DNA of 64,000 nt from assembly GCF_041248615.1 (NCBI RefSeq), contig NZ_CP158425.1, one strand, 5' to 3'. The notes beneath the pieces are model-generated. The model saw only the letters and a program-made list of their open reading frames with translations. It was not told the DNA's origin and made no database searches. The translations under genes were made by a program, and so were the position numbers. How positions within the stretch are numbered: position 1 is the first letter of the stretch; each line of letters begins with the position of its first letter. Of the stretch, positions 1-64,000 are shown one piece after another. This DNA is from Escherichia coli (GTDB lineage Bacteria; Pseudomonadota; Gammaproteobacteria; Enterobacterales; Enterobacteriaceae).

Positions 1-551
1 CACACTCAGCCATTAACAACCCTATGATTAACCTTCTGGCGCAGGGTCGTGCAGCGAAAATTGCACTGTTTATTTGCACCCAAACCATCTCCGACTTTAT
101 TGCTGCGGCAAGTGTTGAAACTGCCAATCGAATTACGGGGCTCTGCAACAATTATATAAGCTTGCGAGTCAACGATACTCCTACTCAGACGCTTGTTGTA
201 GAGAACTTTGGTAAGAGTGCGATAAGCACAAATATGGTCACTTATACGACCGGTTCAGAAACATCTTTGCCGCATAATAACTTCTCAGGTTCAATCTCAG
301 AAAGAAAGCAGACAACTTTAGAAGAGAGTATTCCAAAGGATCTCTTGGGTCAGGTCCCTATGTTTCACATAGTTGCCAGGCTTCAAGATGGCAGGAAGGT
401 TGTAGGCCAAATCCCTATTGCTGTTGCTGAGAAACAAATGAAGCCAAACACAACTCTGTCGGAAATGCTTTTCAAGAAGGCCGGAAAAGTTACTTTGCGT
501 CAAAATCTCGATATCAAAAATCTTAATAAATTTCTAAGGAAGTTGCATTGA
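1..551 (+). CDS. C-terminal fragment of a P-loop ATPase (FtsK/HerA/VirD4-like); 5' end lies outside the window
   Basis: Frame of ORF 24..551 is open back to the window edge; GRAAKIALFICTQT resembles the GR-K-G...TQ box that follows Walker B in this ATPase superfamily. Confidence 0.35.
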   Translation, partial: HSAINNPMINLLAQGRAAKIALFICTQTISDFIAAASVETANRITGLCNNYISLRVNDTPTQTLVVENFGKSAISTNMVTYTTGSETSLPHNNFSGSISERKQTTLEESIPKDLLGQVPMFHIVARLQDGRKVVGQIPIAVAEKQMKPNTTLSEMLFKKAGKVTLRQNLDIKNLNKFLRKLH

Positions 552-1660
552 TGGATGAAAAAATTGTCCTGACGCGCCAGCAAATTTTAAGCTCTGCACT
601 AAAAGTCAGCAAATGTCGCTCGCTCGTAAAAAGGCGCTTTCAGTCTTTGGGTTTAAAGTACGCAGATTCTCAGGAAGTTCGAGATCGGCTAACTAAGATA
701 GAAAAAAACGCGTTTCATCATTTGGGAAAATTTTGTCAGAGCAACGATATCGATTCCCTATTCTCCATGGCAAATACCCTGTCTGAGCTTTTCCTTTTAA
801 AGGGAGAGTTGATCACGACTGATCCCTTTGGGGACCGTGAAACCAGCTACTGGTCGGTACCACAAGGTTCATGCCATGAATGGATTCAATCGCTGACCAC
901 CAGCGAAGGTCCTGAACGTAAATTCGTTAGTTTCCGTATTTCTTTCGATAACAATGACGAACGGTGTGATCTTGTAAAGAAGAATGCCCGTATGCTTGGT
1001 TGTTATCTTTTGCCTTATTTCGTCGATTTGACACGCACGGTGGGCGCATTCATTAATTTGCCAGGTAGTGTCTCTTTTAAACAAGTACAGCGCATCAAAC
1101 CCCAGATTCATCCAGAAACAACACATAGTCATATAGTTACTATTGAGGACTCTCCCTTTCTTTCTCGGTTAAAATTTAAAATCATTACTGCCATAGATCG
1201 GCTTCCTGACCCTAATGGCCTTTATACAAACACCTTTAACAGCATTATTGACCGTGCACTGCTGACTCATCTCAAAACCGAACAGGAAAAAATAGATAGT
1301 CCAAGAGTCTGCAAAAATGTGATTTCGGCTTTTGCCGACTCAACTCTTTCTCTGCCGGTGTTTAACATCGGCCTAAACGAGCAGTACAGATACTGGACGC
1401 CGTGGGGCATCAACTTTATAGAATTTTCCCGCCAGGCCGCAAAAGCAAGGACCGCTGTATTTGTTCCTGATGTGGGACAGATCGAGTGGAAAAGCGCAGA
1501 GCATAAAGAACTGGCGGAGTTAAGCCTCATCGACCAAATCATACCTAAACAGTACCACTGGCTCCTGGGTATCCCGACGATGTGGCGTAACAACTATTGC
1601 AATCACGATCAGAGGCTAGCTCTTTTTCGTGAATGGAGGGAAAGCAATGGCTGCGGATAA
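548..1660 (+). CDS. hypothetical protein
   Basis: 370-aa ORF; start overlaps the upstream stop (ATGA), consistent with translational coupling. Confidence 0.5.
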   Translation: MMDEKIVLTRQQILSSALKVSKCRSLVKRRFQSLGLKYADSQEVRDRLTKIEKNAFHHLGKFCQSNDIDSLFSMANTLSELFLLKGELITTDPFGDRETSYWSVPQGSCHEWIQSLTTSEGPERKFVSFRISFDNNDERCDLVKKNARMLGCYLLPYFVDLTRTVGAFINLPGSVSFKQVQRIKPQIHPETTHSHIVTIEDSPFLSRLKFKIITAIDRLPDPNGLYTNTFNSIIDRALLTHLKTEQEKIDSPRVCKNVISAFADSTLSLPVFNIGLNEQYRYWTPWGINFIEFSRQAAKARTAVFVPDVGQIEWKSAEHKELAELSLIDQIIPKQYHWLLGIPTMWRNNYCNHDQRLALFREWRESNGCG

Positions 1661-2309
1661 TACAAGCAGAGCAGCAGTGCTCAGAACAATGCTTTTTTTT
1701 GGCATGGTCATTTATTTTGGTTACAGCCTGGCTTTCCAGAATACTGAGGAGCTCAAATATCAGATTACTCAGGAGGTTAATGCAAGCCGGTCCATCATAT
1801 CAAATGACCGTTGGAAGTCTGTTATTGCAAATAGTGAAGCGACTTTAAATTGGTTGGTACATGACTATAAGTTAATTGACTATCTGAATACTATTCTGAT
1901 CCCTGACACCAAAAAACCAGCCAGAGGTATTAACATTGTTGCTGAAAAATTTACCTCTATTAATTACACTATGGCCAAAAACATACCCCTCTTACTTTAT
2001 CAGTCCATTTTCCGGTGGAACTTAATCCTGGGGTGGCTAATCGTTTTTCTGCCCTATCTATTTGCCATGCTAGCAGATGGAATGTACCAGTGGAAATTGA
2101 AGAGGTACGTATTTGGTAAGGTTACAGTTCAGTTTTATCGTATTTGGTTTCGAGCATTTTGGGTGATCAGTGCTTTAACGATGGTCTACCTGGTCATGCC
2201 GAATATGTCACTATTTAACAATATCGCTCAACTTTTCCCACCAGTCGCTTTATTGATACTGGGAATTGCATTGAATCGCTTGTGGTCTAACTTTCAAAAA
2301 CTCATGTAA
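1629..2309 (+). CDS. integral membrane protein
   Basis: 226-aa ORF with several hydrophobic segments; overlaps the upstream gene. Confidence 0.45.
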   Translation: MNGGKAMAADNTSRAAVLRTMLFFGMVIYFGYSLAFQNTEELKYQITQEVNASRSIISNDRWKSVIANSEATLNWLVHDYKLIDYLNTILIPDTKKPARGINIVAEKFTSINYTMAKNIPLLLYQSIFRWNLILGWLIVFLPYLFAMLADGMYQWKLKRYVFGKVTVQFYRIWFRAFWVISALTMVYLVMPNMSLFNNIAQLFPPVALLILGIALNRLWSNFQKLM

Positions 2310-2319
2310 AGGTGGTCAG

Positions 2320-3501
2320 ATGTTAAGCAGTAAAAAAAGGAAGTCCCCTACAAATATCAAAGAATCGCTCAATGATAACGCTGACCGTTTTTATAAGATG
2401 TTTCGCATTCATACCACGGCAAAAGTTGCTATGTCGCTAATTGCCATGACCGCTGTAGGGTTTTCTTTCTACAATCTTTACGAACAATGGCAGGACGCTG
2501 AAGGGAAGAAAGACCATATAGCTGTAATACGGATTTCTGGCGAGATGGGTACCGGCTCGGAAACGGGCGATGGAACAGTGATCGCAACAGCTCTTGCCAA
2601 AGCTTACAATAATCCCCATGCCAAAGCAGTTATTATCGAGGCAGAGTCAGGTGGTGGTGGTCCCTCTGACGCCATCATTATTTACCGCCAGATAAACGCG
2701 CTTAAAAACCACCAGCCACAGATTGAACGCGTATCAGATGCCGGTTGCTCTCTTTCATCTGTAGCCGCTGACAAGAGTAACAAAACCGGGAGCACAGAAC
2801 GTGGCGATGAAGCACGGTCGAAGCAAAACTCCCTCGAAGTACTCTCCAGCGGTACCGGTCGTTTTTTCTCTGATATCGCAGACTCATATAAACCAATCAT
2901 CGTTAGTGTGAAAGGCATATGCGCATCCGCATGCTATTACGCGGTATCGCCCGCTGATGCAATTTATGCCGACAGTAATGCCCTGATCGGTTCTATCGGT
3001 GTGCGTATGGACCACTGGAATCTGTCAGAGATCATGAGCACAGTAGGCGTCAAGAATGAGCCCCTTACGGCCGGTGAGTTCAAAGATGCTCTTGACCCCT
3101 TCCACCCATTGTCCGATTCAACGAGGGAGTTCATGCAGAAGGAGATCCTGAACACGATGCATGAAAAATTTATAACTGATGTTGAACTTGGACGGGGTAA
3201 AAAGCTTCTCTCGCGTCATGATGCCGATGCTGTTTCTCTCTATTCAGGCCGTGTATGGCCAACACCTCAGGCAGTTAAGTACGGCCTGGTGGATGGAGAT
3301 CTTACGTCAGTAGAGATCCGTACACGTCTTTCAAAAATGTACTCCACTGACACGTTCAAAAACTACAATGAGCCTCATCGTAATCTCCGTTCTGCACTCG
3401 GCATGCTGATGAGCCTGTCTTCAAATATTGAGAGCCTTACCGGTACCACTACCCGCTTGGTAGAATCTGTTAATGCCACCAGCTACCCCTCTGTGAGGTA
3501 A
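2320..3501 (+). CDS. S49-family (SppA-like) serine peptidase, membrane anchored
   Basis: N-terminal TM segment; motifs GICASACYYA and LIGSIGV resemble the SppA active-site region. Confidence 0.55.
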   Translation: MLSSKKRKSPTNIKESLNDNADRFYKMFRIHTTAKVAMSLIAMTAVGFSFYNLYEQWQDAEGKKDHIAVIRISGEMGTGSETGDGTVIATALAKAYNNPHAKAVIIEAESGGGGPSDAIIIYRQINALKNHQPQIERVSDAGCSLSSVAADKSNKTGSTERGDEARSKQNSLEVLSSGTGRFFSDIADSYKPIIVSVKGICASACYYAVSPADAIYADSNALIGSIGVRMDHWNLSEIMSTVGVKNEPLTAGEFKDALDPFHPLSDSTREFMQKEILNTMHEKFITDVELGRGKKLLSRHDADAVSLYSGRVWPTPQAVKYGLVDGDLTSVEIRTRLSKMYSTDTFKNYNEPHRNLRSALGMLMSLSSNIESLTGTTTRLVESVNATSYPSVR

Positions 3502-9161: not shown

Positions 9162-10346
9162 TCATGACTGTCCCTTGTTCATCTTATCAGCATGCTTACG
9201 CAGGTACTCTTTCAGGTCAGCATGAGCGTTGATGATATCGTTCATTTCATCATTGGTCAGAACAAGCGTGTAAGTATCAGTACTGACAGATTCACCTTCT
9301 TTAAGCTTGGCTTCTTCAGCAATACGTTCAAAAATCGGGATCGCGGTGTCTGCAATGACGGTCACAGTCTTTTTGTTCAGAACGCTGGACATGGAAGGTG
9401 CTTTACCTGCCGGGTTCTGTTTAGGAGCGCTGTCCTTTGGAGCTGGAGCCGGTTCCTGTACCGGTGGCGTATCCAGCGTCTCCGTATTGCTTTCATCGTT
9501 CAGTTGATCCGGTACCGGGGTGTTATCGGTAGTATCATCTGCCGGTTGCTCAGCACCGATGTTTTCCGGAGTCTGCGGATCTGCCATGCGCTCTTCTACC
9601 TTGGCAGCTTTGACGAATTTCAGCGTGTTTTTCGTCGCCTTGCCATAGATGGAGATCGCTTTGTTGATGTTATCTACCGCATCCTCACCGCTGTACATAT
9701 ACTCGTCCAGTGCAACGTACATGCTCACCTGATCGCTCACAAGCATGGTCTGTAGTTCAGAAGGCAGGTCCAGTACGCGAACCATCTGGCGAAGATGCTG
9801 CTCTGATTTACCACGTTTTTTTGCCAGTTCCGCAAAGGTCTTAGGCTCTTCTTTATCTTCAACCAGACGCTTAATTGAAAGCGCTTCAGCTACGACAGAC
9901 AGCGCCAGGTTGGAGTTGCCGGTCAGGGTGAAGAGTTCTGCTTTTGAAGCGCTACCGCGAAACTCTTCGCAGCGAATACGAGTAATGCGTTCACGCCCTT
10001 CTGCTTCCAGCTGGCGGTTTGCAATAGCGATGGAACGGATACGGCAAGCCCCCTGACGCAGTACAGGTACGCCATTAACCATCTGAACAACGATAGGCGT
10101 CACGCTGAACGGGTCTTCCATGTAGGCATCGGCCAGGCTGTTCAGGTGTTCCACAACGTGAGGCATTGAATAGTAGAGCTCGCCCATACCGGCCGTGCGG
10201 GTGTTAAAGCCTTCCTGCTCTACAACAACCGAAGGGTCAATGATAAGGCCGTTGCCTTTACGGGCACCGTTACCAGTGCGTTCCAGGTAACCACGAAGGC
10301 TGATTTCGTTGCTGTTGTTTTTTACTTCAGTTTCGATTGCGGACAT
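9162..10346 (-). CDS. ParB N-terminal domain protein (ParB/Srx-like), paralog 1
   Basis: GFNTR and VNGVPVLRQGACR motifs shared with ORFs 58095..59258 and 62469..63524; no ParA partner. Confidence 0.6.
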   Translation of the reverse strand: MSAIETEVKNNSNEISLRGYLERTGNGARKGNGLIIDPSVVVEQEGFNTRTAGMGELYYSMPHVVEHLNSLADAYMEDPFSVTPIVVQMVNGVPVLRQGACRIRSIAIANRQLEAEGRERITRIRCEEFRGSASKAELFTLTGNSNLALSVVAEALSIKRLVEDKEEPKTFAELAKKRGKSEQHLRQMVRVLDLPSELQTMLVSDQVSMYVALDEYMYSGEDAVDNINKAISIYGKATKNTLKFVKAAKVEERMADPQTPENIGAEQPADDTTDNTPVPDQLNDESNTETLDTPPVQEPAPAPKDSAPKQNPAGKAPSMSSVLNKKTVTVIADTAIPIFERIAEEAKLKEGESVSTDTYTLVLTNDEMNDIINAHADLKEYLRKHADKMNKGQS

Positions 10347-48187: not shown

Positions 48188-49276
48188 TTAGCTGGCGTTG
48201 CTGTTCTTTTTCTGGCTTCGAAGACTACGAATATAGCGCAGTTCTTCAGCGGTTAAATCATGGACGGTAAGAACATCATCGCCGTCAATCGGGTCAGCTG
48301 GTGGGCATAACTCACCTTCTAAAACAGAAGACCCTGAGTTCTCTTCTTCATCTTCAACCACTTCTAAAGGAGGCTGAGTATTGTTCAAATTCAGATCGGG
48401 ATCCCGCTTATGAATCTGGAAGTATACTTTTCCGTCTTTCTTAATTTCGGTGTACTTGAGGTATCCTATCGATGCCAACTCTTCAAGAGCCTTTCTCACG
48501 GTAGCATTCTGACTATTTGCTCGTGTTTTGAGGTTCAGACGATTTTTCAGCCGAGTAAGGGATATCGGTATAGGATTTGGCGGTAATGACTCTATGAACG
48601 TATAGAGAGCCTGGGCGCTTTCCTTCTTGGCCAACTCCTTAATTGCCTTCAGCTGCATCAAAACCTTATGATCGTATTGATAGAGCTCGAAAATCTTAGG
48701 ATCAACCTGAAGGACAACCTGATCTGATTCCGGGTCTAACAGGGCAGACTGTACCAGATGCGTTGTATAGACTTTGGACGAGTTATTACTGGTGAACGAC
48801 AAGGTAACGGATGCTAACCTGCGTAAGGAGGCGTCTATACGTTTTCTGGACGCTGTAGATGAGCGATAATTTTCAGGCGTACATAGCTTGAGGAATTCAG
48901 TGAATTTTAAGCTTATCGTGTCATTGTTAATCGGATGATTGGCATAGGTTCGAATGATGCCCATCCACGTCTTAAAATCTACTGACATATTAAGACGCTC
49001 ACCGACAATTGAAATATTGGTGAACCCCTCGCTCTCCATTAAAGAGAGCGTCTGTAACTCTTTCGTTGCGTCAAAGCCAACCGTTTTATATTCCCGATTT
49101 TGACGCCCCACACTCTTTGGTGATGGGACGAACAGCCCGAGCCGCATCAAAGCAATAGACTGCACCGTACGGTTGCTGTTAGGACGCAAAATGATGTCTT
49201 TACCTGATTCTTTCTCTCTAACAGAGAAAGCCCTGGTGACCAGGTCCTGCTGCTCAGTATCTTTCTCTTTAGTCAT
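48188..49276 (-). CDS. repA: replication initiator RepA, P1/RepFIB family
   Basis: TVQSIALMRLGLFVP, DFKTWMGII, LYQYDHKVL, ALYTFIESLP and IGYLKY match P1 RepA blocks recalled from memory; iterons on both sides. Confidence 0.85.
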   Translation of the reverse strand: MTKEKDTEQQDLVTRAFSVREKESGKDIILRPNSNRTVQSIALMRLGLFVPSPKSVGRQNREYKTVGFDATKELQTLSLMESEGFTNISIVGERLNMSVDFKTWMGIIRTYANHPINNDTISLKFTEFLKLCTPENYRSSTASRKRIDASLRRLASVTLSFTSNNSSKVYTTHLVQSALLDPESDQVVLQVDPKIFELYQYDHKVLMQLKAIKELAKKESAQALYTFIESLPPNPIPISLTRLKNRLNLKTRANSQNATVRKALEELASIGYLKYTEIKKDGKVYFQIHKRDPDLNLNNTQPPLEVVEDEEENSGSSVLEGELCPPADPIDGDDVLTVHDLTAEELRYIRSLRSQKKNSNAS

Positions 49277-54841: not shown

Positions 54842-55909
54842 TCATAGGACTTCCTCTTGTTGAATACGTTCGGCGTACAGGATGCGAACCGAAACGGTCG
54901 TGTTTTCAAACTCGTTCTCAAAAACGTCCATCCATTCCGTCCGGAATTCTTCCCCCAAAAGGTTATCGAGCCCCTGAAGAGATAATGGAAGAACGGCTGC
55001 TAGAGATCCCCCGGCTGCGAGATGAGATGCAGCTGCCTGGAGATGCCGCCTGGCCCGGTTATCGGCAAAAGGTGGGTTCATCACGACATAATCAAACTTC
55101 TTCTGTTGATTAGACTTAGACCATGTGAGGAAGTCAGCTTCTGTCGTATCGTATCCCTTAGCCCGGGAGATAAGGCAATTCAAAGTATCAAGCTCGATGC
55201 CAGTAACGATCACACCGGCAGGGAATGATTTAAGCAAATCCGCATGGCCAATATTAGGCTCCAGGAGGGTATCCCCTTCCCCTGCACCAAGCAGGGAAGA
55301 TACATATTCGCTGATTCGGCAAGATGAAGGGTAAAACTGATGCGATACAATATCAGGCATCTCCCCTATCTGGCCGATGTAACGAATAACCTCACACGGA
55401 TCATAGGAAAATGTCACATCGTATTTTGTTACTGTTGCCCCTAAGAACCGAAGGGTGTCAGCGGCAACACTCGAAGATTTGCGTTCGGCGAGAGACCCTA
55501 AAGATGTCCAGCAACTCCATTTATTGTCCCCGTCATTTTTAAACATCAGTTCAGAAAGCTGCATCCGGGTATCAAAGTCGATGCACTGCTTAAGTACAGG
55601 GAATGCCTCCAAAGATTTCTTGCTATGAGCCATACGGTCGGCAGGTAATGCCAGCGGTACGATAGCTGATAAAATATTGTTAAGCCGCTCGGCGATATCA
55701 GGGTGGACGTCAATATGCATTGATCCATTTTTGTAAACCCTGAAACGAATACTGTTGCCATCGATGCAGATCCATTTTCTGAACCCCTCATGTTCGACCA
55801 ACGCCTCAACCAATGATTTGGTGTTATGGATCGCCTTCACCTGTTCGCCACGGAAGAATGCGCATATAACGCGGAGCTCGCTCAGCGGTGAAATGCCAGA
55901 CTCTTTAAA
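54842..55909 (-). pseudogene. C-terminal methyltransferase domain of a gene split by IS629 copy 2
   Basis: EPNIGHADLL, TGIELD and VVMNPPF motifs; no ATG start (track start is GTG); frame open upstream to the IS boundary. Confidence 0.55.
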
Positions 55910-55967: not shown

Positions 55968-56294
55968 ATGACTAAAAATACTCGTTTTTCCCCCGAAGTC
56001 CGTCAACGGGCAGTCCGTATGGTTCTGGAAAGTCAGGATGAATATGACTCACAGTGGGCGGCAATTTGTTCCATTGCCCCAAAGATTGGCTGTACGCCGG
56101 AGACTCTGCGTGTCTGGGTTCGCCAGCATGAGCGGGATACCGGGGGCGGTGATGGTGGGCTCACCAGCGCTGAACGTCAGCGTCTGAAAGAGCTGGAACG
56201 TGAAAATCGTGAACTGCGCCGCAGTAACGATATCCTTCGCCAGGCTTCCGCTTATTTTGCGAAGGCGGAGTTCGACCGCCTCTGGAAAAAATGA
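55968..56294 (+). CDS. IS3-family transposase OrfA
   Basis: 108 aa, nearly identical to 18179..18505. Confidence 0.9.
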
Positions 56295-57181
56295 TGCCAC
56301 TGCTGGATAAGCTGCGTGAGCAGTACGGGGTCGGACCGGTATGCAGCGAACTGCATATTGCCCCGTCAACGTATTACCATTGTCAGCAACAGCGACATCA
56401 TCCGGATAAACGCAGTGCCCGTGCGCAGCACGATGACTGGCTGAAGAGAGAGATACAGCGCGTATACGATGAAAATCATCAGGTGTACGGTGTGCGTAAA
56501 GTCTGGCGTCAGTTGTTACGGGAAGGAATCAGGGTGGCCAGATGTACAGTGGCGCGCCTCATGGCGGTTATGGGACTTGCCGGTGTTCTCCGGGGTAAAA
56601 AGGTCCGTACGACCATCAGCCGGAAAGCCGTTGCCGCAGGCGACCGCGTAAACCGTCAGTTCGTGGCAGAACGACCTGACCAGCTGTGGGTGGCTGATTT
56701 TACTTACGTCAGCACATGGCGGGGCTTCGTCTATGTGGCGTTCATCATTGATGTGTTTGCCGGATACATCGTGGGGTGGCGGGTCTCATCGTCCATGGAA
56801 ACGACATTCGTGCTGGATGCACTGGAGCAGGCGTTATGGGCCCGTCGACCGTCCGGCACGGTCCATCACAGTGATAAAGGTTCTCAGTATGTATCGCTGG
56901 CCTACACACAGCGGCTTAAGGAAGCCGGATTACTGGCATCAACAGGAAGTACAGGCGACTCGTATGACAACGCGATGGCGGAGAGCATCAATGGTCTTTA
57001 CAAAGCGGAGGTAATACACCGTAAGAGCTGGAAAAACCGTGCAGAAGTGGAACTGGCCACACTCACGTGGGTGGACTGGTATAACAATCGACGATTGCTG
57101 GAAAGGCTGGGCCATACTCCTCCGGCAGAAGCAGAAAAAGCTTATTATGCTTCCATCGGAAACGATGATCTGGCAGCCTGA
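56291..57181 (+). CDS. IS3-family transposase OrfB
   Basis: 296 aa, nearly identical to 18502..19392. Confidence 0.9.
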
Positions 57182-57223
57182 GTTCACAGATAAAACACTC
57201 TCCAGGAAACCCGGGGCGGTTCA

Positions 57224-57847
57224 ATCCACCCTTAATTTCTGCCAGGGGTATTTAGACGGCTCGCAAACTCCGGTAGTGATCATGCGGGTGGAGAACCCAA
57301 AAGCTTTGTTTGTCTTGTGACTGCGGCTCAGAGACTGGAAGACGTCGTAAACCCTTTCTTTAATAAATTGATTGCGGTCATTAAGCAAAGCAACGACTGT
57401 GCCCACTACAGCGTCAGCTGTGAAATCAGGGATCACCTGAGGCGGCATAATATAACGGTCGGCCGTAAACTGCTTATCCCATTCGTTACGTTTGGCATCC
57501 GACATGATAGGCAAAACATCAGTGAGTGCCATAACGCGTTTCCAGTATTCTGATCTCAGAGCGTTTTCTGCGAACAAGGCATCCGCTTCTGAGATGCTGT
57601 GGTTGTAGCCTGAGAGATAAGAATAAAGTTTCTGGTGATTGTGGGTTTTGAACTGGACAGCCATGAGTTTCAACAAGCAGAGTTCATCATTATAGGACTC
57701 AACAAGATCCGCGATAATGCCGAGCTCTTTGCGCATATCTGGAAGAAATGTTTCAGGAGAGCTAACCACCAGGCTATGAGAGGTTGTTAAAGCCAGTACG
57801 CTGTGACCTGCATTATCGGGTTTAGCTTCAGAATCAAGAGATGACAT
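57224..57847 (-). pseudogene. N-terminal part of the gene split by IS629 copy 2
   Basis: ORF 57221..57847 takes its stop codon from the IS terminus. Confidence 0.5.
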
Positions 57848-58094: not shown

Positions 58095-59258
58095 TTATTC
58101 TGCGTCCGGCTGTGGGTCAGTATCCTGATCGGTCTCTTCCCCTGCCTTCTTAGCATTTTTTTTACGTGGGTATTTTGGCTTCTCACCATTAAGTTTTGCC
58201 TGACGATTCTCCGCACGGCGAAGCTGCTTGTTCTCTGATTCTGTGATCTCTTTTGAAAGATTTCTCAACATCTCCAGAGTACTGCGGTTCAACGTAATGT
58301 TGATTTCTTCGTCAGCACTTGAATCTGTCAGCTCCGGCAATTCAATATCCCCCAGTTTCTGTAATAAGCTGGTGGTGATGAGTTTGACGCCTTCTACGGC
58401 TTTTGTGGCAATAACCGGCGGAATCCGTGCTGGCTTGAAGTCTGAAGGTCTGACTCGTACCTGACCATGTTGGGTTTTTTTCACCGTGATGCCATTCGCA
58501 TCGGCCTGCTCAAGTTCTGCGATCATCTTCTTGATACGTGAAATTGCTTCTGTTTCGCCGAGCTCATCGATCAGTGAAAGCACGTTAACATACGAAATAG
58601 CGTCAGCATGAATCCATTTCTTGATAACAACAGAACAGGTTGTCAGGCGGATAAGAGAACTGATGGTCGTCGGGCTTTTATTTTCACGTTGAGCAATTCG
58701 TTCGAGTGACCAGCCAGCAAGAGAATGTAGGCGACGATAGGACTCGCCAAGCGCAACAGGAGAAAGCGCAAGACCACGGTTACCATCAATGGTCGCGAGC
58801 TCACAGCCAATTTCATCTTCTTTAATCTCAACGCAAAGGATTGTGATGTCATGATCTTCATCACATGCCATCATTGCGGCTTTTAAACGGCAGTGCCCCT
58901 GGCGAACAAAAGGTACCCCATCAATGACACGTACTCGGATAGGGTCTACATAGTCACCTCGAATGTAGGCATTCTTGATGTTGTAGATGTGTTCTTCAAC
59001 CTCAGGGAGCTTATAGTAATCGTCACCCATTCCCATTTCGCGGGAGTTGAAGCCTGGCGTGACCTGAATTACTGAAGGGTGGATAGCCCATGCTTTCTGG
59101 TCACTTACTTCAGTACAAAGTTCAGGGTTTGCATCACGGAACTGTTTAAGCCCAGTGACGTAACGGCCTGTGCCAGTAACTACTGAAAAGGCAACATGGG
59201 CCGTTTTAAAGACCTTGTCATTAGCTTGCTGTGTAGGTTCTGTCAGTAAAACACTCAT
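58095..59258 (-). CDS. ParB N-terminal domain protein, paralog 2
   Basis: GFNSR and IDGVPFVRQGHCR motifs; upstream of the IS-split methyltransferase gene. Confidence 0.6.
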   Translation of the reverse strand: MSVLLTEPTQQANDKVFKTAHVAFSVVTGTGRYVTGLKQFRDANPELCTEVSDQKAWAIHPSVIQVTPGFNSREMGMGDDYYKLPEVEEHIYNIKNAYIRGDYVDPIRVRVIDGVPFVRQGHCRLKAAMMACDEDHDITILCVEIKEDEIGCELATIDGNRGLALSPVALGESYRRLHSLAGWSLERIAQRENKSPTTISSLIRLTTCSVVIKKWIHADAISYVNVLSLIDELGETEAISRIKKMIAELEQADANGITVKKTQHGQVRVRPSDFKPARIPPVIATKAVEGVKLITTSLLQKLGDIELPELTDSSADEEINITLNRSTLEMLRNLSKEITESENKQLRRAENRQAKLNGEKPKYPRKKNAKKAGEETDQDTDPQPDAE

Positions 59259-59606
59259 AGGGGCTCCGTTACATTTTTCTGCTTACTTTCTGCGTAGCGG
59301 GGATACTACCGAAAAAAAAATTCATAATTTTTCGCAAAAAAGGTACTTTTTGAGCCTATTCTGATTTTTTACAAAAAAAGGTGGCTCCCCATTACTTGTG
59401 ATGGCATAAAAATCGCTTCATAAACAAATACATAAATCCAAAACATAAAGTTCAGGTATAAGTGAGGAAAAATCTTATAAATCCGAAATGCTGAAAGTCA
59501 AAACTGTGCGTCTTAAACAACTTTTTTTTGCTCCCTAAGTTATTAGTTAAAGCCCGTGGTTAGGTACGATACCAGCACCTAAATTTCTCTCTCAGGTATA
59601 GACACT

Positions 59607-60440
59607 TTGACTCGACATCTCAGACACATGCCGATAATCAAATGGGCTGGTGGAAAAACGAAACTGATGCCTTTCATCAGCCATCACTACCCACACGATC
59701 ATAGTTGCCGGTGGGTAGAACCCTTTATAGGCGGTGGTGCCGTTTTTCTGAACATGTTTGCACAAAATGCATTGCTTGCAGATAGCAATCCAGACTTGAT
59801 CAACCTATACAGGACTATTCAAAGACAGAAAACTAACTTTATAAATCAGGTCCAAAACTTGGCGGATAAAACCTTTGTCGAAAAGGACTACTATGAGATG
59901 AGGGACCGTTTCAACAAAACCTGTATTTCTGGTCAATCGCTTCAAAGAGCGGCTTTGTTTTACTCCCTGAATCGCCTGGGCTATAACGGTATGTGCCGCT
60001 ATAACTCAGAAAGAATCTATTCAGTGCCGTGGGGGAAACATACAGAACTGAAGCTTGACCTCAATAAAATAGACTACCTTTCATTTCGTCTTTCAGGTAT
60101 TGAACTGATCACCGCTGGTTTTGAGGAGACTCTGGCCGCAACCGGTGAAGGAGATCAGATTTACTGTGATCCGCCATATGACAAAACAAGCAAAACTAGT
60201 TTTGTCAGTTACGATGGTAAACCGTTCAGCCAAAGCGACCACGTGCTGTTAGCAAATATGCTCGTTGACGCTCACAGAAAAGGCGCTGCTGTTGCGATAT
60301 CAAATAGCCTGACATCATTCACTTTGGGCCTCTATGAAGAGCGTGGATTCGTCATACACAGACTCAGCGCTTACCGATCCGTAGGAAGTAAGCCGAATAC
60401 ACGGAAAACGGAAACAGAAATACTGGCCGTGCTGAAATAG
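59607..60440 (+). CDS. Dam-like (D12 class) N6-adenine DNA methyltransferase
   Basis: IKWAGGK and DPPY motifs. Confidence 0.8.
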   Translation: MTRHLRHMPIIKWAGGKTKLMPFISHHYPHDHSCRWVEPFIGGGAVFLNMFAQNALLADSNPDLINLYRTIQRQKTNFINQVQNLADKTFVEKDYYEMRDRFNKTCISGQSLQRAALFYSLNRLGYNGMCRYNSERIYSVPWGKHTELKLDLNKIDYLSFRLSGIELITAGFEETLAATGEGDQIYCDPPYDKTSKTSFVSYDGKPFSQSDHVLLANMLVDAHRKGAAVAISNSLTSFTLGLYEERGFVIHRLSAYRSVGSKPNTRKTETEILAVLK

Positions 60441-60448
60441 AGTAAATT

Positions 60449-61116
60449 CTAATCAACTAGGCTAATCCATTCCTCAAAAGTTAATACCTCAGGGTAAGTT
60501 CGTTGAACATAAGGTATAAACTGAAGCTCTTCTATTCTCCGGTCGCCCCTCTTTCCTTCGCAAATAAATGAAATGAGTCCTTGCTGAGAAAGGCCAGTAA
60601 GGACGCTCATAAGTCTTATATTTAGACTTTTAAGCTGTAAGTCGTTATTAATGTCCTCCACTTTATGAGAGCTCTGGCCTGAACGTTTAAGATACTCGTA
60701 AACCATGAAATTCGAATTTCGTCGTTTTAACAATTTTTCGGTTATGCATTCCTGAATGAAGTCGCCAAGAGCATCTAAAAGCGGACTGAGAACTACCGGG
60801 AAAGTTAATGTGTAACTTTGAGAAGTTTTAGACAAAGTGAATGAGTTTAGAAAGCTAAAGTTTAGTCTCTTTTTTGAATATGGAACATAAGCGACAAGAG
60901 TAGTCGACATAACAGTAAGTAAAGCTTCAAGATGGTTCACTGTTATTAAAGTGGTTTTATCTGTATTTCTAAGATTATGGAAATCAATAAACGCTACTCT
61001 TGAACGGCTAAGCCAATCTTGTACTTTAATGTCGATAGAAAATTGCGAGATATGATTTGAACATTCATTTTGGGTGATAGGGCATGCAGACGAAAGATGG
61101 TTATGGATTATCATGC
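60449..61116 (-). CDS. hypothetical protein convergent with the Dam-like gene
   Basis: AT-rich ORF; start set at the internal Met because the longer track ORF runs through the upstream palindromic motif at 61201. Confidence 0.35.
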
Positions 61117-61537
61117 ATAGCACAAAAAAAGGAAAACGGCAGGCTGTGGGGCATTGAAAACCGGTTAAAGAAAGCTTAGACGTTTCATATGCGCTTACCG
61201 GAAAAGTAACTTTTCTTAACGTTGGCTTTGACGATGTTCTTGCATTTTTACAAATGAAACCGAGACCCAGATCATTGTGCATTTTAAAGTCCATCTCCAT
61301 CATCACCTTTTAGCCTTAACTGTATGGTATTGGTATACAAAAAATTAAAATTATAATTAATAAGATTATCATTTTTTTACAATAGAAAAGGTTCTGATAG
61401 AGGGGAATTTAAATGTAAAAGATTTATACTCGCAGATCTTTATGAGGGATAAAACCCATTGCGTAAGCAACAATATTACGTGAGTGAGTCCTAACGACAG
61501 TTAAAGTCTTGGCTCTATATTTAAGCAGCAAAAACAT

Positions 61538-62254
61538 TTAACTGTCTTGGAGTTTATTTAACTTAAAAACTGTTATTGCAGCATAATTTTTCGAATCAAA
61601 TTCATAGAATTTTCTGACTTTTCCAGTCAAATGATAACGTTCACCCAATAAAATGTGATCCTGTTTATCGGCCGTTAAAGCGATCCCGTCATTTCTAACT
61701 TTACCAGTAAATGTAAAAAAATAACTCCCTTTACTTTTTGCGTACGCGGCCCTGACTTCAGTAAATGTTAGTTCAATGCTTATGACCTGGCCGATATTGT
61801 AGCTATGTTTTAAAATTTCTTGTTCATTTTCCGGAGTTTCAGACAACATCACATCAAAAGTTGTAAAGAAACAATCCAGCTGGCGTTCTGTCAAGAAACG
61901 GTTATTGTCTAATTGCGCCAATATACTATTAGAAAACTTAGTGTTAGCCTTTTTTGCTTTCTCAATAAGGACGTGGTTTCTGGATTTCCATGCTTCGAGT
62001 GTTGGGTTAACACGCAGTTCCGGAATGTTATCGAGAAAGGTAATTGGCTCTAGTGCCACTAATTTTTCAATAATGGGTCCAACTGTTTGTACCCCATGAC
62101 ACTTTTCACATAAATCAGCCCCTTTGTGGCCTGTGCCCGCACATTCGTTACATTCTCTTTCGATAGGTGCATAATAATTTCCATCTCCGTTAAGTGATAC
62201 ATTCACTGAGGCTGGTACCATATGACCATCAAGAGTAAAGAAAAGAGATTTCAT
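61538..62254 (-). CDS. zinc-finger protein with two CxxCxGxG motifs
   Basis: CNECAGTG and CEKCHGVQ in a 238-aa AT-rich ORF. Confidence 0.45.
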   Translation of the reverse strand: MKSLFFTLDGHMVPASVNVSLNGDGNYYAPIERECNECAGTGHKGADLCEKCHGVQTVGPIIEKLVALEPITFLDNIPELRVNPTLEAWKSRNHVLIEKAKKANTKFSNSILAQLDNNRFLTERQLDCFFTTFDVMLSETPENEQEILKHSYNIGQVISIELTFTEVRAAYAKSKGSYFFTFTGKVRNDGIALTADKQDHILLGERYHLTGKVRKFYEFDSKNYAAITVFKLNKLQDS

Positions 62255-62451
62255 TTTCGAAACACCTCCAAACGTGCCTCTACGATTGCTACAGCTTCTT
62301 TCACAGTTTTTTCATAGTGGTCATGCCCTTCAGGAAATTGATCAAAACGTTTACCGTGTTCTAACTCTTCCATGTTGCGTTTAAGGACTTCATGAGTTAG
62401 AAGCAAATCACTATAATTATCGATAAGAGTCAGCTTTATAGGTTTAATCAC
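62251..62451 (-). CDS. hypothetical small protein
   Basis: 66-aa ORF overlapping the next start (ATGA). Confidence 0.35.
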   Translation of the reverse strand: MIKPIKLTLIDNYSDLLLTHEVLKRNMEELEHGKRFDQFPEGHDHYEKTVKEAVAIVEARLEVFRK

Positions 62452-62468
62452 TCAACTAATCCTCGTTT

Positions 62469-63524
62469 TTAATATTCCTTAAGGAGATCTCGAATTTCCA
62501 GAAGCTCTTCTAATTTTGGTTTAGAAACAATGATTGCTGTATTTTCGTCGTTAAGTAAAGACAATAAAATATTTAGCTTTTCATCATTCAAGATTATTTG
62601 AACACCATCATTGGAAAATATTACATTATTACTATTAACATTTTTGAACAAGTGTGCACTATCTCTACCAAATTTTAGTTCTGTTTGAGTATTCGTTATA
62701 GATTCCGTATGTGTACTTTCCACAAGCTCAAGAAATTCAGATTTTAGCCGTTCTGTTTTCTTATGCGAGAGGCGCTTAATACCCAAAGTCTTACGAGTGA
62801 CTGCCGAATTTTTCTTTTCTGGTCCGCCTTTATTTAAGGTGTCTGGTCCTGCTCCAGCTGCATTGTGTTCAGGTATGCCTACAATTTTGCTCGTTGTAGT
62901 CTCAATATTCTTAACGCCAGGTAAGAAACCTTCTATATGTTTTAAAACCATTTTGTGATCGTTGGAATATTTTAACATTATTTCAATGGCGAGCGTTTTT
63001 TTGATTAGATTTAGGCTAATCAAACGTTGAAGCTCTAATGGCATATCAAGGATTTTTAGCATATTACGAATTGCGGTAGTTGATCGTTGATATCGCATTG
63101 CTAGTTCTTCAACCGAATACCCGAGACTAACAGCATGAGCTAATGCATGAGCTTGCCCAACCGGATTTAGCCCATTGCTTCTGTTACCATCGAGGTTCTC
63201 AAGGTATTCTTCAATTTCGTTTTTATAATCGATTAGGATAACAGATAATTTTGGAATATTAGCACCTTCAGAAATTGCTAATTTTAAGCCATGAAAACGA
63301 GTATGACCTTGACGAACTAAATATTTACCTTTTCTTTTTACGACCTTGATCATATCAACCTGCCTTCCTTCCTTAAAGGCTTGTTTGATTGACACAATCA
63401 TCGACTTGACAGGTTCTTGTTCGTAACACAAATCTCCGATTACCGCCTCTCGGGGATTAAATCCCTTTTCAATTTCAACTAGATTAGTATCCACTTCAAT
63501 GACTGTATGTTTGCTGTTGTTCAT
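62469..63524 (-). CDS. ParB N-terminal domain protein, paralog 3
   Basis: GFNPR and YLVRQGHTR motifs; AT-rich. Confidence 0.55.
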   Translation of the reverse strand: MNNSKHTVIEVDTNLVEIEKGFNPREAVIGDLCYEQEPVKSMIVSIKQAFKEGRQVDMIKVVKRKGKYLVRQGHTRFHGLKLAISEGANIPKLSVILIDYKNEIEEYLENLDGNRSNGLNPVGQAHALAHAVSLGYSVEELAMRYQRSTTAIRNMLKILDMPLELQRLISLNLIKKTLAIEIMLKYSNDHKMVLKHIEGFLPGVKNIETTTSKIVGIPEHNAAGAGPDTLNKGGPEKKNSAVTRKTLGIKRLSHKKTERLKSEFLELVESTHTESITNTQTELKFGRDSAHLFKNVNSNNVIFSNDGVQIILNDEKLNILLSLLNDENTAIIVSKPKLEELLEIRDLLKEY

Positions 63525-64000
63525 ATCTTCCTCCTGTTTACTACATGATACATGAACCTCAAATTTGCCAAATAGGGCTGATACATCTAAAAGGTAAACT
63601 CAAAAAATTTGCTTAATAAAATTAAAATAAAAACTGTCTTGAATAAAACAATGATAGTAGACCCTCGTTCATTTCCGTTTGCGATCTGTAGATATTGTTA
63701 AAGGAGCGCTATTCCTTGTTTTATATGGACTTATCATTGTTTTCAACAGGATAGATCAATTCTTTAGATCACTAAAGATCAATAGAGTTCAAGTAAAGAT
63801 CACGGCATCTTTAACTCATTGATTATAGTGACTTTATGAAAGGATCCGGCATTCGGATGCATGCGAAAAGCATTTGAATGAATAAGGAAGGCATTTACTG
63901 GAATGCTTATGGCATTTAGGTTAATGCGTAAAAAGCATTTGCAAGAATATGTTATAAACAGTTTGCCAAATGAAAATCTTATCACCGACGAGTTAAGTTA

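What the first reader, a model, noticed from the sequence alone, without database searches (positions are those of the whole stretch)
59607..63540. Dam-like methyltransferase convergent with an AT-rich block that holds a possible partner gene, a zinc-finger protein and the third ParB-like gene
The Dam-like gene ends 9 bp from the stop of a convergent ORF of about 220 aa (60449..61116). From 60449 to about 63540 the sequence is markedly AT-rich compared with the rest of the window, which suggests separate acquisition. The arrangement could be a GATC-type restriction-modification pair, which would be notable in a normally Dam-positive host, or an orphan anti-restriction methylase beside an unrelated operon.
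Basis: inference. Interest (0 to 1): 0.45.

Follow-up and report, generated by a model that had tools for sequence, protein, structure and literature searches.

The report
Orphan Dam methylase beside Rep-like protein
The Dam-like gene is a solitary DNA methylase in the conserved backbone of IncHI resistance plasmids, and the gene facing it is predicted to be a DNA-binding protein shaped like a plasmid replication initiator rather than a restriction enzyme, so there is no sign of a restriction-modification pair here.

Summary
A Dam-family gene (59628-60440, +) ends 8 bp from a convergent ORF, and 60449-63540 is the most AT-rich 3 kb of the window (36.3% vs 45.7% GC).

The restriction-modification reading is not supported.
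- The convergent ORF is 277 aa (60449-61282), not about 220 aa. It matches no nuclease or defence model.
- No [D/E]xK motif is conserved in the family.

The window is IncHI2 plasmid backbone, found in more than 1,100 records. The whole block sits beside the RepHIA iteron origin and keeps its gene order in relatives where the ORF is only 28-30% identical. The low GC is kept too, so this is old backbone and not a recent import.

In the IncHI1 plasmid R27, the ORF's homologue R0040 rises 18.6-fold when transfer is derepressed.

Two further features turned up: a 22-nt non-coding element conserved upstream of the ORF, and a GATC-repeat array in the origin.

Verdict: an already annotated orphan Dam next to an uncharacterised Rep-like protein family found only in IncHI-type plasmids. 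Modest interest.

The parts
59628..60440 (+). Solitary Dam-family (D12-class) N6-adenine DNA methyltransferase, probably GATC-specific. The ORF extends upstream to a TTG at 59607.
   Evidence: PF02086 E=1.1e-48 and TIGR00571 228 bits. It aligns end to end with E. coli Dam and DpnM. The DPPY motif and EcoDam positions K9, Y119, N120, R124 and P134 are conserved. It is annotated as Dam family in plasmid records.
60449..61282 (-). 'ORF X': a 277-aa protein of a narrow family seen only in IncHI-type plasmid contexts. It is predicted to be two basic winged-helix domains arranged as in RepE/RepA. It is not a nuclease.
61479..61500 (-). Conserved single-copy non-coding element CTGTCGTTAGGACTCACTCACG, about 195 nt upstream of ORF X and just after the zinc-finger gene. 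Possibly an operator or other regulatory site.
   Evidence: The 12-nt core GACYCACTCACG is exact and single-copy in the seven loci fetched at that point, L001-L007. One match in the window against 0.02 expected. No Rfam hit and no convincing RNA fold.
61538..62254 (-). 238-aa protein with one DnaJ-type CxxCxGxG zinc-binding motif. The rest is of unknown function.
   Evidence: PF00684 E=7.8e-4, below the cut-off. PGAP name 'zinc finger-like domain-containing protein'. No solved relative.
62251..62451 (-). 66-aa protein of unknown function. It overlaps the zinc-finger gene start by 4 nt, which suggests an operon.
   Evidence: ORF list. Conserved as a 66-69-aa gene in L002, L003, L005 and L007.
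62469..63524 (-). ParB-like protein (N-terminal ParB/Srx-type domain plus HTH), the third paralogue in the window. No ParA partner is adjacent.
   Evidence: PF17762 26.9 bits (cut-off 22.6), phrog_1033 E=1.9e-25, and TIGR00180 below its cut-off. Weak similarity to Noc and Spo0J. Paralogy is shown.
63683..63950 (.). RepHIA origin region between the ParB-like gene and repHIA, whose start is at window position 64001. It holds six GATC sites in 160 bp (four with an A-GATC-A core), then iteron-like AAAAGCATTTG / GGCATTTA repeats.
   Evidence: The equivalent arrays are conserved in L003 (4x TGATCT plus AAATGCTTTT repeats) and L005 (6x GATCTC at about 11-bp period plus ACGGACACTkTGACCA repeats).
58095..59258 (-). 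ParB-like paralogue #2, divergent from the Dam gene. In intact relatives it heads an operon with a DUF4942/N6-MTase-like protein.
   Evidence: Its R27 homologue R0042 is highly expressed.

Best explanation
The region is conserved IncHI-plasmid backbone lying next to the RepHIA iteron replicon.

Shown by sequence or by prediction:
- The + strand gene encodes a solitary Dam-family m6A methyltransferase with an intact catalytic motif and the GATC-contact residues of E. coli Dam.
- The convergent gene (ORF X) encodes a basic, two-domain winged-helix protein. Its predicted architecture is that of iteron-plasmid initiators (RepE, RepA, RctB domains 2-3).
- ORF X has no nuclease features.
- The low GC content is an old, inherited property of this backbone segment.

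Inferred:
- The methylase keeps plasmid GATC sites methylated independently of the host. That would protect the plasmid from GATC-cutting enzymes in hosts that lack Dam. It would also keep the GATC-rich RepHIA origin methylated.
- ORF X is a sequence-specific DNA-binding factor derived from, or convergent with, a Rep protein. It acts as a regulator or accessory factor and not as the initiator.
- ORF X has its own control region, the conserved 22-nt element, and is switched on together with the transfer genes.
For: Context
- More than 1,100 plasmid records are at least 95% identical. The annotation places the block between repHI2 and repHIA next to the trh transfer genes.

Dam
- Family scores are above cut-off.
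- It aligns over its full length with EcoDam and DpnM.
- DPPY and positions K9, Y119, N120, R124 and P134 are kept.
- No restriction-enzyme model hits any neighbour.

ORF X
- Conservation is full-length and protein-like.
- All five models agree, with pLDDT 83 and pTM 0.83.
- In Foldseek the only hit with E <= 0.001 is RepE (E=8.5e-4, prob 0.99, 213 columns). The Rep WH1 domains of MSBI1.176 (E=5e-3, prob 0.99) and pPS10 RepA (E=0.13, prob 0.82) rank just below it.
- Both domains are basic and no [DE]xK motif is conserved.

Synteny and composition
- The gene order ParB-like, 66 aa, zinc-finger, ORF X, then convergent Dam is kept at 62%, 43% and 28-30% ORF X identity.
- The GC dip is kept: 41.2 vs 49.5%, 40.5 vs 46.9% and 40.0 vs 44.3%.

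Other points
- A bona fide Rep_3 initiator with its own iterons sits beside the block in the four lineages where that flank was sequenced, so ORF X need not be the initiator.
- Expression in R27: R0040 rises from 168 to 3113 (18.6-fold) in the transfer-derepressed htdA mutant at 25 °C. The tra genes mostly rise 8-28-fold and the neighbouring genes 3-8-fold (PMC7366339).
Against: - The fold assignment rests on a predicted structure from a 12-sequence alignment.
- Profile-profile comparison with Rep_3 is not significant (hhalign E=0.069).
- No binding site for ORF X has been identified, and no RepHIA-type iterons lie near it.
- The htdA derepression in R27 is plasmid-wide (139 of 181 genes), and the data are for a 62%-identical homologue.
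- GATC specificity of the methylase is inferred from conserved residues only.
- A nuclease with an unrecognised active site cannot be formally excluded by computation.
Confidence: 0.75

Rival explanations
1. The Dam-like gene and ORF X form a type II restriction-modification pair that acts on GATC, with ORF X as the endonuclease.
For: The two genes are tightly convergent, 8 bp apart. Their adjacency is conserved in all intact relatives. The methylase scores about equally on PADLOC 'type II MTase' and 'orphan MTase' models.
Against: ORF X has no hit to any restriction enzyme, nuclease or defence model. All 277 residues are taken up by two winged-helix-type domains that match Rep proteins and repressors. 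The only restriction enzyme listed, FokI, is not significant (E=1.4, prob 0.08) and the match reflects its winged-helix recognition domain. No [DE]xK motif is conserved. Adjacency is uninformative because the whole 8-gene block is syntenic. In Photorhabdus the methylase is a frameshifted pseudogene while ORF X is intact, although a Dam-positive host would mask this. GATC is not avoided in the window (225 observed, 253 expected).
Confidence: 0.03
2. ORF X is a functional replication initiator of an unrecognised additional replicon of IncHI plasmids.
For: It has a RepE/RepA-like two-domain fold. It lies in AT-rich DNA near replicon genes.
Against: There is no iteron array or other repeat family around the gene. 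It is not a sequence-level member of Rep_3. A canonical Rep_3 gene with its own iterons and GATC-rich unwinding region is always next to the block. Its expression follows the transfer regulon rather than the rep genes: R0040 rises 18.6-fold against 2.2-fold for repHIA.
Confidence: 0.07
3. ORF X is a kleisin- or ScpB-like winged-helix adaptor that works with the ParB-like proteins of the block in DNA condensation or segregation.
Against: These matches are short (55-93 residues) and typical of any winged-helix domain. No SMC, Mks or Jet ATPase gene is in the block or its flanks. The longest and most probable matches are to Rep proteins.
Confidence: 0.05

Closest known systems
E. coli Dam and DpnM (M.DpnIIA), D12-class GATC N6-adenine methyltransferases
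   Same: Alignment over the full length at about 33% identity to EcoDam. The FxGxG and DPPY motifs and the DNA-contact positions K9, Y119, N120, R124 and P134 are the same.
   Different: It is plasmid-borne and not the chromosomal orthologue: the NF008152 equivalog scores 169 bits against a cut-off of 441. L122M, R137K and Y138H are substituted. No cognate endonuclease is present, unlike DpnM.
Orphan methyltransferases of conjugative plasmids and phages (anti-restriction role)
   Same: It is a solitary MTase on a conjugative plasmid, close to ParB-like genes and a second MTase-like gene (DUF4942). Orphan MTases are described as common plasmid establishment genes (PMC11541004).
   Different: That study concerns leading regions next to oriT. 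I did not show this block to be a leading region. It lies beside the RepHIA replicon and the trhA-trhB (Mpf) transfer genes.
RepE (F plasmid), RepA (pPS10) and other iteron-plasmid initiators (Rep_3, WH1-WH2)
   Same: ORF X has the same predicted two-domain winged-helix architecture. RepE is aligned over 213 of 222 residues, and the WH1 domains over about 110 of 125-129 residues.
   Different: There is no significant sequence or profile similarity, no adjacent iterons, and global TM-scores are low. ORF X carries a highly conserved N-terminal extension (residues 1-45).
RctB of Vibrio cholerae chromosome 2
   Different: No evidence links ORF X to the GATC repeats. These repeats have the layout of oriC-type unwinding 13-mers belonging to the RepHIA origin, which has its own initiator.

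Membership tests
Type II restriction-modification system (GATC type, DpnII/MboI-like) | A methyltransferase of matching specificity | tested here: met
   A Dam-family D12 MTase with the EcoDam GATC-contact residues conserved. Specificity is inferred, not measured.
Type II restriction-modification system (GATC type, DpnII/MboI-like) | A neighbouring endonuclease with a nuclease fold or catalytic motif | tested here: not met
   ORF X has no Pfam, NCBIfam, PADLOC or PHROG hit. Its predicted fold is a tandem winged helix. No [DE]xK motif is conserved. No other neighbour matches a nuclease.
Type II restriction-modification system (GATC type, DpnII/MboI-like) | GATC-dependent restriction in cells carrying the pair | not testable with these tools
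   This needs cloning in a dam-negative host and phage or plasmid restriction assays.
Dam family / D12-class N6-adenine DNA methyltransferase | Family models above curated cut-offs | tested here: met
   PF02086 scores 166.6 bits (cut-off 22). TIGR00571 scores 228.1 bits (cut-off 114.85).
Dam family / D12-class N6-adenine DNA methyltransferase | Catalytic DPPY motif and SAM-binding FxGxG motif | tested here: met
   D181-P-P-Y184 aligns with EcoDam DPPY. The sequence EPFIGGGAVF is present.
Dam family / D12-class N6-adenine DNA methyltransferase | Orthology with chromosomal E. coli-type Dam | tested here: not met
   The NF008152 equivalog scores 169 bits against a cut-off of 441. Identity to EcoDam is about 33%.
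Dam family / D12-class N6-adenine DNA methyltransferase | m6A methylation of GATC | not testable with these tools
   This needs a methylome of a dam-negative host carrying the gene.
Rep_3 iteron-plasmid initiators (RepE/RepA/pi) | Tandem WH1-WH2 winged-helix fold | tested here: met
Rep_3 iteron-plasmid initiators (RepE/RepA/pi) | Sequence membership (PF01051/PF21205) | tested here: not met
   No Pfam hit. A profile search against the PDB finds nothing. hhalign against a 23-sequence Rep_3 alignment gives E=0.069.
Rep_3 iteron-plasmid initiators (RepE/RepA/pi) | Iterons next to the gene | tested here: not met
   There is no repeat family around ORF X, and no RepHIA iteron core near it.
Rep_3 iteron-plasmid initiators (RepE/RepA/pi) | Supports autonomous replication | not testable with these tools
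   This needs a replication assay.
ParB partition proteins (for 62469-63524) | ParB N-terminal domain plus HTH | tested here: inconclusive
   PF17762 HTH_ParB scores 26.9 bits (cut-off 22.6) and so is met. TIGR00180 scores 33.9 bits against a cut-off of 58.45 and so is not met. phrog_1033 gives E=1.9e-25.
ParB partition proteins (for 62469-63524) | Adjacent ParA/ParM-type ATPase partner | tested here: not met
   None is present in the block or its annotated flanks. In R27 the real parA/parB and parM/parR genes are elsewhere (R0013-R0020).

The most novel reading that the evidence does not exclude
ORF X is a Rep-derived DNA-binding factor that is switched on with the transfer genes and works together with the adjacent Dam. 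For example, like RctB, it might bind the GATC-containing repeats of the RepHIA origin, or its own conserved 22-nt element, in a methylation-dependent way. That would gate plasmid replication or establishment around conjugation.
Probability: 0.07. Interest if true: 0.6.

Novelty: new member of a known kind. Interest (0 to 1): 0.25.

Why it matters
IncHI2 plasmids are major carriers of mcr-1 and other multidrug resistance genes.

Showing that this block is not a restriction-modification system removes a tempting mis-annotation.

It also gives a first structural hypothesis for a 'hypothetical protein' present in about 1,390 sequenced plasmids: a Rep-like winged-helix DNA binder that is co-induced with transfer. 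Its conserved upstream element and the neighbouring Dam gene and GATC-rich origin can be tested directly.

The practical gain is modest, because the methylase itself is already annotated and orphan plasmid methylases are a known class.

Tried and rejected
- Nuclease or defence identity of ORF X: four HMM libraries gave nothing.
- Sequence link of the ORF X profile to any solved structure: only chance-level hits.
- Remote homology to Rep_3 by hhalign: E=0.069. The aligned stretch is sensible but not significant, so I claim fold resemblance only.
- Widening the family: an exhaustive single-sequence search and a profile search found no new relatives. The one extra hit, P0138, is a rearranged fusion on a short contig.
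- Iterons or shared motifs between the ORF X and repHIA upstream regions: none beyond chance. A 15-nt inverted match (61360-61374 / 63968-63982) is at the level I estimate to be expected by chance in AT-rich DNA, and no shared word longer than 11 nt between the two upstream regions appeared in the window or any relative.
- Promoter and terminator scan of 59200-64000: counts no higher than in shuffled sequence.
- Rfam and a consensus RNA fold for the conserved 22-nt element: no family, and only -2.96 kcal/mol.
- The idea that every ParB-like paralogue sits beside an MTase: rejected, because the first paralogue (9162-10346) has no such neighbour.
- The idea that L005 lacks a Rep gene, which would have made ORF X a candidate initiator: rejected, because its 543-aa protein is a distant Rep_3 homologue.
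- AFDB50 fold search: the library was unavailable.
- Literature: no paper in the held library describes the IncHI Dam or ORF X beyond gene tables.
Full report
**Observation**

The ORF list shows a + strand ORF from 59607 (TTG) to 60440, and a convergent - strand ORF whose stop codon is at 60449. The sequence shows 8 bp between the two stop codons. Public annotation starts the first gene at the ATG at 59628 (270 aa). It gives the convergent gene as 60449-61282, or 277 aa.

Those residues include columns that are invariant across homologues, and they are modelled with reasonable confidence.

The AT-richness is real. 60449-63540 is 36.3% GC against 45.7% for the window, and it is the lowest 3-kb stretch in the window. 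The zinc-finger gene (61538-62254), a 66-aa gene (62251-62451) and a ParB-like gene (62469-63524) are all present. The ParB-like gene is indeed the third paralogue in the window.

**Where this is**

The 4.3-kb region matches 1,115 plasmid records at 95% identity or more. They come from Escherichia, Salmonella, Enterobacter and Klebsiella and are mostly conjugative.

In an annotated IncHI2 record the order is: repHI2, a large Ig-like protein, small hypotheticals, a DUF4942 protein, ParB-like, Dam, ORF X, zinc-finger, 66 aa, ParB-like, repHIA (Rep_3 family), then trhA/L/E/K/B. The window ends exactly at the repHIA start codon. RepHI2 lies at 48386-49240.

**The methylase**

- It passes Pfam PF02086 and NCBIfam TIGR00571 'dam' well above their cut-offs. 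It falls far below the equivalog for chromosomal Dam.
- It aligns end to end with E. coli Dam and DpnM structures.
- An alignment to EcoDam shows DPPY and positions K9, Y119, N120, R124 and P134 conserved, with L122M, R137K and Y138H substituted. That these positions contact the GATC site is from my knowledge of the EcoDam-DNA structures. GATC specificity is therefore likely but untested.
- GATC is not avoided in the window: 225 observed against 253 expected.

**The convergent ORF (ORF X)**

It matches nothing in Pfam, NCBIfam, PADLOC or PHROGs.

Its family is tiny. A word-indexed search found 14 hits, an exhaustive search of 1.84 billion representatives found 8, and a profile search added no real relative. 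In the plasmid collection it occurs in 1,393 records, always as 'hypothetical protein'. The two main identity tiers are about 95-100% (IncHI2) and about 62% (IncHI1-like). Conservation runs the full length and looks like a real protein.

Adding three distant members (43%, 39% and 28% identical) raised the AlphaFold model from pLDDT 69.6 to 83.1, with pTM 0.83 and all five models in agreement.

- Foldseek, an independent method, ranks RepE first (E=8.5e-4, probability 0.99, 213 aligned columns), followed by the Rep WH1 domains.
- FokI appears only at E=1.4 and probability 0.08. That is what its winged-helix recognition domain would give.
- Both ORF X domains are basic (pI 9.4 and 9.6), and no [D/E]xK motif is conserved.

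Sequence-profile comparison with a 23-member Rep_3 alignment is not significant (E=0.069). I therefore claim fold resemblance, not family membership.

**Is the pair linked?**

Gene neighbourhoods of homologues at 62%, 43% and 28-30% identity all show the same eight-gene order, including the convergent D12 methylase. Because the whole block is syntenic, adjacency says nothing specific about a Dam-ORF X partnership.

In a Photorhabdus plasmid the methylase is broken into out-of-frame pieces while ORF X is intact. This argues against an obligatory pair, although a Dam-positive host would mask the loss.

No other neighbour resembles a nuclease. The DUF4942 protein carries a weak C-terminal N6-MTase-like domain.

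**The AT-rich block**

The same block is GC-poor relative to its flanks in every relative examined: 41.2 vs 49.5%, 40.5 vs 46.9% and 40.0 vs 44.3%. The composition dip is therefore older than the split of these plasmid lineages. It is not a sign of recent acquisition.

The block abuts the RepHIA origin. The 476-bp intergenic region before repHIA holds six GATC sites in 160 bp and iteron-like repeats. The relatives have the same layout. L005 shows six GATCTC units at about 11-bp period, next to an A/T-rich tract and three iteron-like repeats. This resembles the GATC-containing unwinding repeats of oriC-type origins (my knowledge). L005's 543-aa neighbour is a distant Rep_3 homologue, so each lineage has its own proper initiator.

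**Expression evidence from a relative**

In the IncHI1 plasmid R27 the block corresponds to R0036 (repHIA) through R0043, and R0040 is the ORF X homologue by synteny.

- All of R0037-R0041 are low in the wild type.
- In the transfer-derepressed htdA mutant at 25 °C, R0040 rises 18.6-fold (168 to 3113) and the Dam gene R0041 rises 7.8-fold. The other block genes rise 3-7-fold and the tra genes mostly 8-28-fold.
- Nothing changes at 37 °C.
- The derepression is plasmid-wide, affecting 139 of 181 genes. The result is therefore suggestive, not specific.
- The annotation column of Table S4 is shifted in the text copy, so I relied on gene IDs and cross-checked the numbers against Table S3.

**A conserved non-coding element**

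About 195-250 nt upstream of ORF X, just after the zinc-finger gene, lies a 22-nt element, CTGyCG-N4-GACyCACTCACG. It is nearly invariant in the five lineages aligned. Its 12-nt core is exact and single-copy in the seven loci fetched at that point (L001-L007). It has no Rfam match and no convincing RNA structure. It is probably a DNA-level regulatory site, but its partner is unknown.

**Mechanism, with what is shown and what is inferred**

Shown by sequence or prediction:
- The methylase is solitary and of the Dam family.
- ORF X is a basic tandem winged-helix protein with Rep-like architecture and no nuclease features.
- The block is ancient IncHI backbone next to an iteron origin with a GATC array.

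Inferred:
- The methylase keeps plasmid GATC sites, including those of the origin, methylated independently of the host. This would matter in recipients that lack Dam or that carry GATC-cutting enzymes. Orphan methylases are a recognised plasmid strategy (PMC11541004).
- ORF X is a DNA-binding regulator or accessory factor that is expressed with the transfer genes.

The most novel reading I cannot exclude is that ORF X reads methylated GATC repeats, as RctB does at Vibrio ori2 (PMC6090056). I give it about 7%.

**Verdict**

The restriction-modification hypothesis is not supported, and the 'orphan methylase beside another operon' alternative is. The methylase is already annotated. The fold assignment for ORF X, its conserved upstream element and its transfer-linked induction are new but modest observations. 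Interest 0.25.

Noticed in passing
window 61479-61500 (- strand): A 22-nt non-coding element (CTGTCGTTAGGACTCACTCACG) upstream of ORF X. Its 12-nt core is exact and single-copy in the seven loci fetched at that point (L001-L007), even where the flanking proteins are only 28-30% identical. It has no Rfam match and no convincing RNA fold, and its function is unknown.
   Followed up: partly
window 63683-63950: The RepHIA origin region has six GATC sites in 160 bp (four with an A-GATC-A core) followed by iteron-like AAAAGCATTTG / GGCATTTA repeats. Equivalent GATC arrays are conserved in L003 (5341-5429) and L005 (2419-2476, six GATCTC at about 11-bp period). A plasmid Dam gene lies 3.2 kb away.
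   Followed up: partly
window about 55.9-57.2 kb (IS orfB at 56291-57181 on the + strand; DUF4942 fragment at 57221-57847 on the - strand): An IS3-family element of about 1.3 kb splits the DUF4942/N6-MTase-like gene, which is intact (563 aa) in other IncHI2 plasmids. The 3' part of the gene resumes near 54842-55886.
   Followed up: partly
L002 4770-5675 (Photorhabdus tasmaniensis contig): The Dam homologue is a frameshifted pseudogene, with a 189-aa N-terminal piece and a 60-aa C-terminal piece, while ORF X (63% identical) is intact. A DDE_3 transposase gene is inserted between the zinc-finger gene and ORF X.
   Followed up: yes
L008 1446-2645: On one 5.6-kb metagenomic contig, the first ~95 residues of a P0017-type ORF X are fused to an unrelated PF01555 N4/N6 methyltransferase. 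This is probably a rearrangement or an assembly chimera.
   Followed up: partly
L005 2220-5593: A divergent relative has a 543-aa protein that is a distant Rep_3 homologue (23% identity to RepHIA, E=7e-11) with no Pfam hit. It has its own iteron-like repeats (ACGGACACTkTGACCA) and about 1.3 kb of apparently non-coding DNA between the origin and the gene.
   Followed up: partly
window 60600-61400: There is a strong positive GC skew on the + strand (up to +0.27 at 60800-61199) over the 5' half of ORF X. It is unexplained.
   Followed up: no
R27 literature (PMC7366339, Table S4): In the held text copy, the gene-function column of Table S4 is shifted by one to two rows relative to Table S3. For example, 'DNA adenine methylase' is printed beside R0040 instead of R0041. 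The gene IDs and numbers agree between the two tables.
   Followed up: yes
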